A stretch of DNA of 64,000 nucleotides from Mobula birostris (Eukaryota), in contig NC_092380.1 in the NCBI RefSeq assembly GCF_030028105.1, forward strand, positions 112,211,899-112,275,898, in the 5' to 3' direction. Every line of letters starts with the position of its first letter. The first letter of the stretch is position 1. Shown piece after piece: positions 26,907 to 28,439 of this stretch. The notes below the pieces were generated by a model that saw only the letters and a list, made by a program, of their open reading frames with translations, was not told the DNA's origin and made no database searches. A program made the translations under genes and the position numbers.

Positions 26907-27078
26907 CGAGGTTTGTGACCAGTCAGCATGAGAAAAGCATCATAAAACAATGCAGGCACTGTATGACTGACAGCAATCCAATAGTGATGCAAAATGGGAT
27001 TGGAGCGTAGGTTAACATTTGGGCGTCTCATTGCCCGTTCTAAAGGATTCATCTTGAAGGACAAATTTACATGATATT
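26907..27078 (-). CDS. FAR1: FAR1 exon 9b (duplicated alternative exon), 172 nt, [20 protein letters not shown]...LTGHKPR
   Basis: Acceptor TTTTCTCTGCAG, donor CG|GTAAGA. Same length and phase as 9a, no stops, 38/58 aa identical to 9a. Confidence 0.88.
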
Positions 27079-27354
27079 CTGCAGAGAAAATAAGTATGAT
27101 GTTGTTTTGAACAAAAACATTGCAGATACTAGAGGGATAAAAATGATTTAAAGGAACAAGTCCAGGCTTCAAAGTCATTTGGAATAATACTCAGTGAAAA
27201 CAGAAAATGCTATAAACGCTTGGCATTTGTGTTCAGAGAAACAGTTAACATTTCAGTTCTCCACCAGAGATCCAAAGCAGTAACTGTGTCTCTCTCTCTC
27301 TCCACAGATGCCGTCTGACCTGATGAGCGTTTCCAGTATTTTCTGCTTTTATAT

Positions 27355-27635
27355 TTACTTATTGACATACAGCATGGAGTAGACCTTCTGGCCCTTCGAG
27401 CCTCGCCACCCAGGAATCCCCCAATTTAACCCTAGCCTAATCACGGGACAACTTACAATGACCAATTAACCTACCAACCGGTATGTCTTTGGACTGTGGG
27501 AGACAACCAGAGCACCCGGCGGAAAATCATGAAATCACAGGGAGAATGTAAAAATTCCTTACAGGCAGCAATAGGAATTGAACCCAGGTGGTAGGTACTC
27601 GAAAGCGTTGTGCTAACCACTACGCTACCGTGCCG
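27355..27635 (-). mobile_element. V-SINE/HE1-like SINE between exons 9a and 9b
   Basis: tRNA-like head GGTAGCGTAGTGGTTAGC...GGGTTCAATTCC plus conserved GGGTGCTCTGGTT.TCTCCCACAGTCCAAAGAC domain. Confidence 0.8.
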
Positions 27636-28267
27636 TATGCAGTGTCCCCAGATTTCCAATTTTGCAAATGTAGGCTTATCATTCACGGATTAGTTGCATC
27701 CGGTCAGATGCCAACGTTACACTTCGATTTAGATTACTCGATGATGATGGCAAAATAGTCTTGTTAAATCACAAAAGAACGTTGCAATGATGACCCTAGT
27801 CCTTAGTGAAAGTTAAAGATACACAAGTTCTTAACCATTCATAGGACACTTTAATCAAATGGTGACAGTAGACCCTTTGCCATTCGAAGGTGTCTTCTTC
27901 ATCACCCTGTCTCAACTGGACCCACTCTCAAGCTAGAATTTGAGGAATATTTGAGGATAGATACTTTGAAGCTGGAAAACTTCCTTTAAACATGTTCACA
28001 ACTCTTCAACATTTCTATGTTTCAGCAATTTCACGATAAGCTTAAATGAGAGAAGCTACTTGTGCATTAATCTACATCATCCTTTCAGGAAGAGTGACAC
28101 ACGGCAAGATCACCAATTAGTATTCATTGCTGCTGTATGAAGCACCCATTTGCTGAGGTCCTTTGCACATTAAGTGGCCGGGAAGAGATAATGAATTGAG
28201 GACTGAGAATTAGAGTACATTTTCAATGATTCAGTTAAGCATACAGGGTAAAGCTAGCCACCATTAC

Positions 28268-28439
28268 CTTGGTTTTCTTCCAGTAAGCCTGAGGTAGACA
28301 TCATATAGGAATGCTGGGGCCTTATGGCTTACAGCAATCCAGTACTGATAGATCAAGTGATTGGAGGTTAGATTTACATTAGGCCGCCTGAAAGCCTGCT
28401 CGAGAGGATTCCTCTTGAAAGTGGATATTACATGGTATT
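28268..28439 (-). CDS. FAR1: FAR1 exon 9a (canonical type), 172 nt, [20 protein letters not shown]...LTGRKPR
   Basis: Acceptor TTTTCTTCCTCAG, donor AG|GTAATG, peptide nearly identical to canonical vertebrate FAR1 as recalled. Confidence 0.95.

What the first reader, a model, noticed from the sequence alone, without database searches (positions are those of the whole stretch)
26907..28439. FAR1 carries two intact, homologous 172-nt copies of exon 9: a likely mutually exclusive splicing switch
Seen: exons 9a (28268-28439) and 9b (26907-27078) have identical length and phase, strong AG/GT sites and no stops. They share 38/58 aa, and both rebuild Glu at the 5' junction and Arg at the 3' junction. 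Since 172 is not a multiple of 3, including both or neither shifts the frame, so only either/or splicing gives a 515-aa enzyme. Established: FAR1 makes the fatty alcohols that limit ether-lipid and plasmalogen synthesis, and chondrichthyans store alkyl-diacylglycerols. From memory, mouse Far1 has an alternative exon here with a similar SFKMNPL/HTVPAL signature, which would make this switch as old as jawed vertebrates. Inference: the two isoforms could differ in acyl-chain specificity or in plasmalogen-dependent turnover. The 1189-nt spacing argues against simple steric exclusion.
Basis: partly seen in the sequence, partly recalled or inferred. Interest (0 to 1): 0.75.

Follow-up and report, generated by a model that had tools for sequence, protein, structure and literature searches.

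The report
Known FAR1 either-or exon in ray
A ray's gene for FAR1, the enzyme that makes fatty alcohols for ether lipids, carries two intact versions of one exon, only one of which can be used to give a full-length enzyme; the pair is already described in human and mouse and reported as conserved in sharks and rays, and the second version is likely an epithelial form whose predicted difference in fatty-chain preference was not tested here.

Summary
Observation confirmed; already known. Exons 9a (28268-28439) and 9b (26907-27078), minus strand, are each 172 nt, AG/GT-bounded, 38/58 aa identical. Either alone gives 515 aa; both or neither give early stops. The 9b isoform is 515/515 identical to a protein NCBI names Mobula birostris FAR1 isoform X4. 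One of four runs laid holds a contig whose length and ends match the spliced 8-9b-10 form. The pair is published: human FAR1 9a/9b (PMC5740500), 'conserved in sharks and rays' (PMC8373072), and ESRP1-regulated in mouse, where exon 8-to-9b use in epidermis falls from 0.47 to 0.05 without Esrp (PMC9550651). Added here: 9a is nearly frozen (49-54/56 ray vs bony vertebrates), 9b keeps its own residues but drifts (29-44/56), the human 9b as printed in PMC5740500 looks eroded, and the FAR2-like paralogue has one 9a-type exon. Best mechanism: ESRP-driven choice with decay of out-of-frame products; a chain-length difference is plausible, untested here. Interest low.

The parts
62743..62931 (-). FAR1 first coding exon (exon 2 in human-style numbering), 189 nt from ATG
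55892..56067 (-). exon 3, 176 nt
44929..45108 (-). exon 4, 180 nt
42424..42601 (-). exon 5, 178 nt, holds the YxxxK motif (motif name recalled; also in PMC9113324 passage)
38009..38053 (-). exon 6, 45 nt
33551..33678 (-). exon 7, 119 nt (donor after 33560) or 128 nt (donor after 33551, adds 3 residues)
   Evidence: NCBI isoforms X4 (515 aa) and X2 (518 aa)
31818..31885 (-). exon 8, 68 nt, common upstream exon
28268..28439 (-). exon 9a, 172 nt, the conserved form, residues 319-376
27297..27634 (.). interspersed repeat inside the 9a-9b intron, with about ten other copies in the window; accounts for part of the 1189-nt spacing
   Evidence: very high contig depth
26907..27078 (-). exon 9b, 172 nt, the alternative form, residues 319-376
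26787..26906 (-). UGG/GU-rich stretch just downstream of the 9b donor, candidate ESRP enhancer (6 TGG in 120 nt; 3.6% of 3072 windows of the gene have as many)
   Evidence: function inferred from mouse
6551..6680 (-). exon 10, 130 nt, common downstream exon
3922..4049 (-). exon 11, 128 nt
1039..1201 (-). exon 12 coding part to the stop; holds the membrane anchor, Arg480 and residues 491-507, shared by both isoforms

Best explanation
This is the ray copy of the known vertebrate FAR1 exon 9a/9b pair, two duplicated 172-nt exons of which only one at a time gives a full-length enzyme, with 9a likely the default and 9b likely switched on in epithelia by ESRP proteins to give an enzyme predicted to differ in fatty-chain preference. 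Shown: the anatomy, the four reading-frame outcomes, orthology of each copy across jawed vertebrates, purifying selection, and a contig matching spliced 9b in 1 of 4 runs laid. Inferred from mouse: ESRP binds a UGG-rich stretch downstream of 9b and promotes it (about 0.6 for the ray). Inferred from established rules: transcripts with both or neither exon carry stops 363 and 253 nt upstream of the last junction and would be removed by nonsense-mediated decay, which enforces the either/or outcome (about 0.8). Inferred and untested: the 20 changed residues lie between the NADPH-binding fold and the membrane anchor and tune which acyl-CoAs are reduced (about 0.45).
For: Frame outcomes 515/515/397/319 aa. 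The 9b isoform equals P0002 with 0 differences in 515 residues; 9b-type proteins are named isoform X2/X4 in four myliobatiform rays, Narcine and Scyliorhinus. Of the 120 proteins (9b-biased queries), 86 are 9b-type, 27 9a-type and 7 hold both (typed by one diagnostic site). In a tree of 56 hand-picked exon peptides all 23 9b rows, ray to pangolin, form one side of a branch (support 89/90, not starred). Asn323 is in 23 of 23 9b rows and Ile323 in 15 of 15 9a rows; Lys358-Ala359 are fixed in 9a and absent from all 9b rows; Asp365 is invariant in all 38. pN/pS between the two ray copies is 0.37 (bootstrap 0.22-0.59). Run X2 holds a 202-nt contig on 26906-27079 with 0 other letters and 28 letters that do not fit the genome; a simulation with 31-mers gives exactly 202 nt (1 before, 29 after the exon) when 8-9b-10 converges on exon 10 with another path, 203 for 8-9a-9b-10 and 303 for 9b alone. 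Mouse epidermis: exon 8-to-9b 0.469 in controls and 0.053 without Esrp (supplement of PMC9550651); the text says ESRP1 binding appears to enhance exon 10b, and the supplement's signal is downstream of that exon (max 83 against 2-3). The model (pLDDT 95.6) puts the exon at the end of helix 315-328, strand 341-343 and helix 346-370; best fold match is the rice FAR DPW, 7EOZ, TM 0.75. Two reviews state that positions 355 and 377 set C16 versus C18 preference in Arabidopsis FAR5/FAR8.
Against: The ray transcript evidence is one low-depth contig (depth 8.9) in a run only guessed to be RNA; its 28 loose letters were not printed, so their identity as exon 10 is inferred from length, and the simulation cannot tell a 9a path from an exon-skipping path as the converging partner. 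Junctions of 9a and the 9a:9b ratio were not examined in reads. The UGG cluster is modest (3.6% of windows reach it) and 5-mer counts downstream of 9a equal those downstream of 9b (5 and 5 in 250 nt); its conservation could not be tested. Seven database proteins hold both exons in one chain; they look like gene-model artefacts with extra residues or a patched frame, but I did not prove that. Human data show 9b about eightfold lower in the same tissues with no skin excess (15.5 against 130.1, read by eye). The plant specificity residues were not mapped onto FAR1, and I had no coordinates to test pocket contacts.
Confidence: 0.9

Rival explanations
1. Both exons are used either/or, but the two enzymes do the same chemistry; 9b changes stability, partner binding or localisation (for instance plasmalogen-dependent turnover) instead of chain preference.
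For: 17 of 56 positions, including Asp365, are invariant in all 38 9a and 9b rows. None of the paper searches returned an assay of the two isoforms.
Against: The known turnover and targeting determinants (Arg480, 451-507, 491-507) lie in shared exons (PMC8026396 passages). Class-fixed changes at 323, 358 and 359 suggest a specific property kept under selection.
Confidence: 0.3
2. 9b is a decaying, rarely used duplicate in the ray with little function.
For: 9b diverges faster than 9a and than the rest of the protein (59-79% inside against 76-83% outside the exon for ten bony vertebrates). The human copy looks eroded.
Against: The 9b peptide is 56/56 identical in Hemitrygon, Hypanus and Mobula records, 52/56 in Narcine, 51/56 in Scyliorhinus; pN/pS 0.37; intact splice sites; a matching contig in run X2; 47% use in mouse epidermis.
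Confidence: 0.04
3. Exclusion is enforced physically, by steric hindrance, U2/U12 incompatibility or competing RNA pairing, not by a regulator plus decay.
For: Several 14-22 nt inverted repeats lie around the exons; conservation of any pairing could not be tested.
Against: The spacing is 1189 nt here, about 300 nt in mouse and human (coordinates), and another AG lies about 50 nt upstream of the 9b acceptor, which argues against a far branch point. All donors read as U2-type (consensus recalled). No listed inverted repeat forms a docking site with one selector per exon (25 of 31 shown).
Confidence: 0.08

Closest known systems
Human FAR1 mutually exclusive exons 9a/9b (Hatje et al. 2017, PMC5740500; passages and supplement rows seen)
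   Same: Same gene, same position and order, 9a of 172 nt with 51/56 identity typical of mammalian 9a to the ray's, same phase; Asp365 of the RCDP variant p.Asp365Gly is in this exon.
   Different: The human 9b as printed is 157 nt and 53 aa and lacks 5 of the 17 residues invariant in my 38 rows (Trp352, Pro360, Leu368 changed; Gly372, Pro375 absent) and Asn323 (compared by eye); the ray's 9b is full length and intact.
Mouse Far1 exons 10A/10B, ESRP1 target (Peart et al. 2022, PMC9550651; passages and supplement rows seen)
   Same: Two 172-nt exons in the same order, either/or use; the paper calls the exons and the ESRP1 sites highly conserved.
   Different: Spacing about 300 nt against 1189 nt; rodent 9b shares only 29/56 residues with ray 9b (Apodemus record); ESRP control in the ray is inferred only.
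Tandem exon duplication-derived substitutions (Martinez Gomez et al. 2021, PMC8373072; passages and supplement passage seen)
   Same: [quoted passage not shown]
   Different: Gives no rates, residues or function for FAR1 in the passages seen.
FGFR2 IIIb/IIIc switch
   Same: Homologous exon pair chosen by ESRP in epithelia; works as an isoform switch of specificity (ligand specificity recalled).
   Different: In FGFR2 ESRP binds between the exons and favours the upstream one; in Far1 it favours the downstream one.
FAR2-like paralogue in the same genome (G000:C11)
   Same: Exon of 172 nt in the same phase, 48/56 identical to 9a.
   Different: Only one copy in the 19.9-kb stretch from its exon 8 to exon 10; 34/56 to 9b.

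Membership tests
FAR1 (fatty acyl-CoA reductase 1) | NAD_binding_4 plus Sterile domain, C-terminal anchor, closer to FAR1 than to FAR2 | tested here: met
   Pfam PF07993 15-284 and PF03015 357-448 above cut-off; 76-99% to named FAR1 proteins, 57-59% to mammalian FAR2
Mutually exclusive homologous exons (tandem exon duplication) | Neighbouring homologous exons of equal phase with splice sites | tested here: met
   172 nt each, AG/GT, 38/58 aa
Mutually exclusive homologous exons (tandem exon duplication) | Each alone keeps the frame; both or neither do not | tested here: met
   515/515 aa against 397 and 319 aa
Mutually exclusive homologous exons (tandem exon duplication) | Each exon is spliced to the common flanks in transcripts | tested here: inconclusive
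   9b: one contig fitting 8-9b-10 in 1 of 4 runs; 9a junctions not examined in reads; NCBI models of related rays hold each form
Mutually exclusive homologous exons (tandem exon duplication) | The two exons are not joined to each other in stable transcripts | tested here: inconclusive
   The X2 contig length (202) fits 8-9b, not 9a-9b (203), but it is one low-depth contig
Vertebrate FAR1 exon 9a/9b cluster | Ray 9b is orthologous to mouse and human 9b, ray 9a to 9a | tested here: met
   All 23 9b rows on one side of a branch, 89/90; same order as in mouse and human; class-fixed residues
ESRP-enhanced exon | UGG-rich element downstream of the exon | tested here: inconclusive
   6 TGG in 120 nt, reached by 3.6% of windows
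ESRP-enhanced exon | Inclusion depends on ESRP and is epithelial | not testable with these tools
   Shown in mouse only
Sterically exclusive or U2/U12 exon pair | Donor too close to the next branch point, or mixed spliceosome types | tested here: not met
   1189-nt intron, nearby upstream AG, U2-type donors
RNA-pairing (docking/selector) exon cluster | Conserved competing base pairing | tested here: inconclusive
   No such layout among the 25 of 31 inverted repeats shown; no orthologous introns to test conservation

The most novel reading that the evidence does not exclude
Exon 9b encodes an ancient epithelial FAR1 with its own fatty-chain preference, switched on by ESRP through a UGG element kept from rays to mice for skin and mucosal ether or wax lipids, and eroded in humans. 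If so, the ray's intact pair is a clean natural swap for mapping the chain-length pocket of vertebrate FARs, and the published idea that human 9b partly rescues the p.Asp365Gly disease variant is doubtful.
Probability: 0.3. Interest if true: 0.5.

Novelty: already known. Interest (0 to 1): 0.2.

Why it matters
As a discovery it is low: the exon pair, its presence in sharks and rays, and its ESRP control in mouse are published, and NCBI annotates the 9b isoform in rays. What stays open in the papers I could see is what the 9b enzyme does differently. FAR1 is believed to limit ether-lipid synthesis (PMC8026396), so a tissue switch in its chain preference would matter to lipid biology. The contrast found here (9a frozen, 9b intact in rays, drifting in amniotes, apparently eroded in human) gives a cheap test and bears on a published disease-compensation idea.

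Tried and rejected
Protein search with the 56-aa 9b peptide at near lengths found nothing; the longer-length search did. Sequencing runs: no RNA holder listed on record, 19 rows, 13 guessed RNA; runs X1, X3 and X9 gave no contig across 9b, which is no evidence either way. Timing against the FAR1/FAR2 split: 9a plus FAR2 group at 76/58 only and a 9a-plus-9b clade is not rejected (p-AU 0.17), so 'older than the FAR1/FAR2 duplication' is neither shown nor excluded; the invertebrate-like outgroup rows are distant and partly unnamed, and no jawless-fish sequence was identified. A third copy of the exon was sought in the window and in the paralogue's introns: none. The first structure model from a shallow alignment was poor (pLDDT 60.5) and was not used. 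No RBFOX-type TGCATG within 250 nt of either copy (motif recalled). Inverted repeats gave no docking layout. Papers not held: PMID 35238077 (Otsuka 2022, mouse FAR1/FAR2 chain-length assays; I could not check whether it covers the splice isoforms) and PMC3798499 (Chacon 2013; seen only through two reviews). PMC10638238 was a false word match; PMC12149581, PMC12915242 and PMC12269847 passages do not mention FAR1 splice isoforms. Earlier findings of this scan: none. A special link to shark and ray alkyl-diacylglycerol storage was dropped because 9b is present across bony vertebrates.

Full report
Observation. The window holds the coding part of a FAR1 gene on the minus strand, from the ATG at 62931 to the stop at 1039. 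Between exon 8 (31885-31818) and exon 10 (6680-6551) lie two homologous exons, 9a (28439-28268) and 9b (27078-26907). Each is 172 nt, has AG before and GT after, and is open in the same frame. They share 120/172 nt and 38/58 residues and are 1189 nt apart. Either alone gives 515 aa. Both together stop inside 9b at 397 aa, 363 nt upstream of the last junction; neither stops in exon 10 at 319 aa, 253 nt upstream. A second donor in exon 7 adds three residues (518 aa) independently of the choice.

Identity. The predicted 9b isoform has no difference in 515 residues from P0002, named by NCBI 'fatty acyl-CoA reductase 1 isoform X4 [Mobula birostris]', and 2-6 differences from three other rays. Pfam gives NAD_binding_4 (15-284) and Sterile (357-448). 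A whole-genome search with the 9b peptide gave three matches among 11 candidates: 9b, 9a and one exon of a paralogue on contig C11. That paralogue (FAR2-like by its lower identity, and its place in the tree) has one copy only in the 19.9 kb from its exon 8 to exon 10, 48/56 identical to 9a and 34/56 to 9b.

Selection and age. Between the two ray copies pN/pS is 0.37 (bootstrap 0.22-0.59), with synonymous sites near saturation. Of the 120 proteins returned by two 9b-biased searches, 86 are 9b-type, 27 9a-type and 7 hold both (typed by one site, so two chimeric-looking models count as 9a); the seven look like gene-model artefacts, which I did not prove. I picked 56 exon peptides by hand for a tree (15 9a, 23 9b, 7 FAR2, 11 distant FARs; near-duplicates and chimeric models left out). 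All 9b rows from ray to pangolin fall on one side of a branch (89/90, not starred; few columns). 9a is almost frozen: 49-54/56 to the ray in 14 bony vertebrates, 44 of 56 columns invariant. 9b is 51-56/56 among cartilaginous fishes but 29-44/56 in 20 bony vertebrates, 18 columns invariant. It still keeps class residues: Asn323 in 23 of 23 against Ile in 15 of 15, and Thr/Ile/Val358 with Val/Leu/Ile/Gly359 against Lys-Ala. So both copies predate the shark-bony fish split and 9a is close to the ancestral state. Whether the duplication predates the FAR1/FAR2 split is unresolved.

Transcripts. No listed run is on record as RNA. I laid 4 of the 19 listed runs on 26300-28100. Run X2 has a 202-nt contig covering 26906-27079 with no other letters and 28 letters at the donor side that do not fit the genome, plus a separate intron-to-exon contig beginning at 27050. 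Simulating 31-mer contigs from the predicted forms gives exactly 202 nt (1 base, the exon, 29 bases) when 8-9b-10 converges on exon 10 with another path, 203 nt for 8-9a-9b-10, and 303 nt if 9b were the only path. This fits real 8-9b-10 splicing, but it is one contig at depth 8.9, its loose letters were not printed, and the converging path could be 9a or a skip. The 9a junctions and the ratio of the two forms stay open.

What is in print. Hatje et al. 2017 (PMC5740500; passages and supplement rows seen; the appendix figure not seen) report a novel human FAR1 exon 9b, mutually exclusive with 9a, about eightfold lower, and suggest it partly compensates the p.Asp365Gly variant. Martinez Gomez et al. 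2021 (PMC8373072; passages and a supplement passage) state that the FAR1 exon is conserved in sharks and rays and mutually exclusively spliced in all species where annotated. Peart et al. 2022 (PMC9550651; passages and supplement rows) show direct ESRP1 control in mouse epidermis: exon 8-to-9a 0.531 in controls and 0.947 in the Esrp knockout, exon 8-to-9b 0.469 and 0.053; ESRP1 binds UGG repeats. Eight searches on FAR1 isoforms returned no assay of the two enzymes; subscription papers are mostly not searched, and Otsuka 2022, which assayed mouse FARs, was not held and may bear on this.

Mechanism. Steric exclusion is unlikely: the intron is 1189 nt here and about 300 nt in mouse and human, and an AG about 50 nt upstream of the 9b acceptor argues against a far branch point. 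Donors are U2-type (consensus recalled). No docking layout appears among the inverted repeats shown. The best reading is regulated choice plus decay of the out-of-frame products (the decay rule is established knowledge, not tested here). The ray has a UGG/GU-rich stretch about 30-65 nt downstream of 9b, where an ESRP site would enhance the exon; 6 TGG in 120 nt is reached by 3.6% of 3072 windows in the gene, and a 5-mer count does not separate 9b from 9a, so this is weak.

Function. A confident model of the 9b isoform (pLDDT 95.6, pTM 0.92) matches the rice FAR DPW structure (7EOZ, TM 0.75). The exon encodes the end of helix 315-328, a loop, strand 341-343 and helix 346-370, after the NADPH-binding domain and before the anchor. 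In extended short-chain reductases this C-terminal part binds the substrate (recalled). Two reviews report that residues 355 and 377 decide C16 versus C18 preference in Arabidopsis FAR5/FAR8; these numbers fall between the two domains as exon 9 does, but I could not align them. The turnover determinants Arg480 and 491-507 (PMC8026396 passages) are in shared exon 12.

One point not seen in the passages I read. The human 9b printed in the supplement of PMC5740500 is 157 nt and 53 aa. By eye it has lost 5 of the 17 residues invariant across my 38 9a and 9b rows, and Asn323. Its signal in human skin (15.5 against 130.1) and oesophagus (29.6 against 567.1) shows no epithelial excess (read by eye). 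The boundaries are that paper's prediction and may be off. If right, 9b is functional from rays to mice and eroded in humans, which weakens the compensation idea.

Verdict. A real and intact mutually exclusive exon pair, already known, including its presence in sharks and rays. Interest 0.2. The open part is the biochemistry of the 9b enzyme.

Noticed in passing
window 33551-33559 (minus strand): Second donor in exon 7 adds three residues (518-aa isoforms). A 2-3 residue insert at this place is in shark, ray, gar, teleost, amphibian, reptile and bird records; the four mammalian FAR1 records looked at lack it.
   Followed up: partly
G000:C11:25335517-25440971 (L003-L005): FAR2-like paralogue with a single, 9a-type exon 9 and a short (about 1.4 kb) intron to exon 10; much closer to FAR1 in this exon (48/56) than mammalian FAR2 is (33-35/56).
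   Followed up: partly
window 27297-27634: Short interspersed repeat in the 9a-9b intron, with about ten other copies in the window and very high depth in all four runs; family not identified.
   Followed up: no
window 31568-31817 (minus strand): Two TGCATG and a third GCATG (RBFOX-type motif, recalled) within 250 nt downstream of exon 8; a possible second regulator of the 9a/9b choice.
   Followed up: no
PMC5740500 supplement, human chr11:13736523-13736679: Human 9b as printed is shortened and lacks several otherwise invariant residues, in contrast to the rodent and pangolin 9b records, which keep them.
   Followed up: partly
PMC5740500 supplement file 9: The fly gene CG30427 is listed as FAR1 orthologue in the human-fly table of genes with mutually exclusive exons, with 'orthologous' marked false: possible independent exon duplication in an insect FAR.
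   Followed up: no
window 5328-6332, 39561-40664 (plus strand) and about 59600-61770: Broken reading frames that look like LINE reverse transcriptase (first two) and Tc1-type transposase (last), judged by eye; labels recalled, no family scan run.
   Followed up: no
window 51891-52029: Run of 139 N in intron 3.
   Followed up: no
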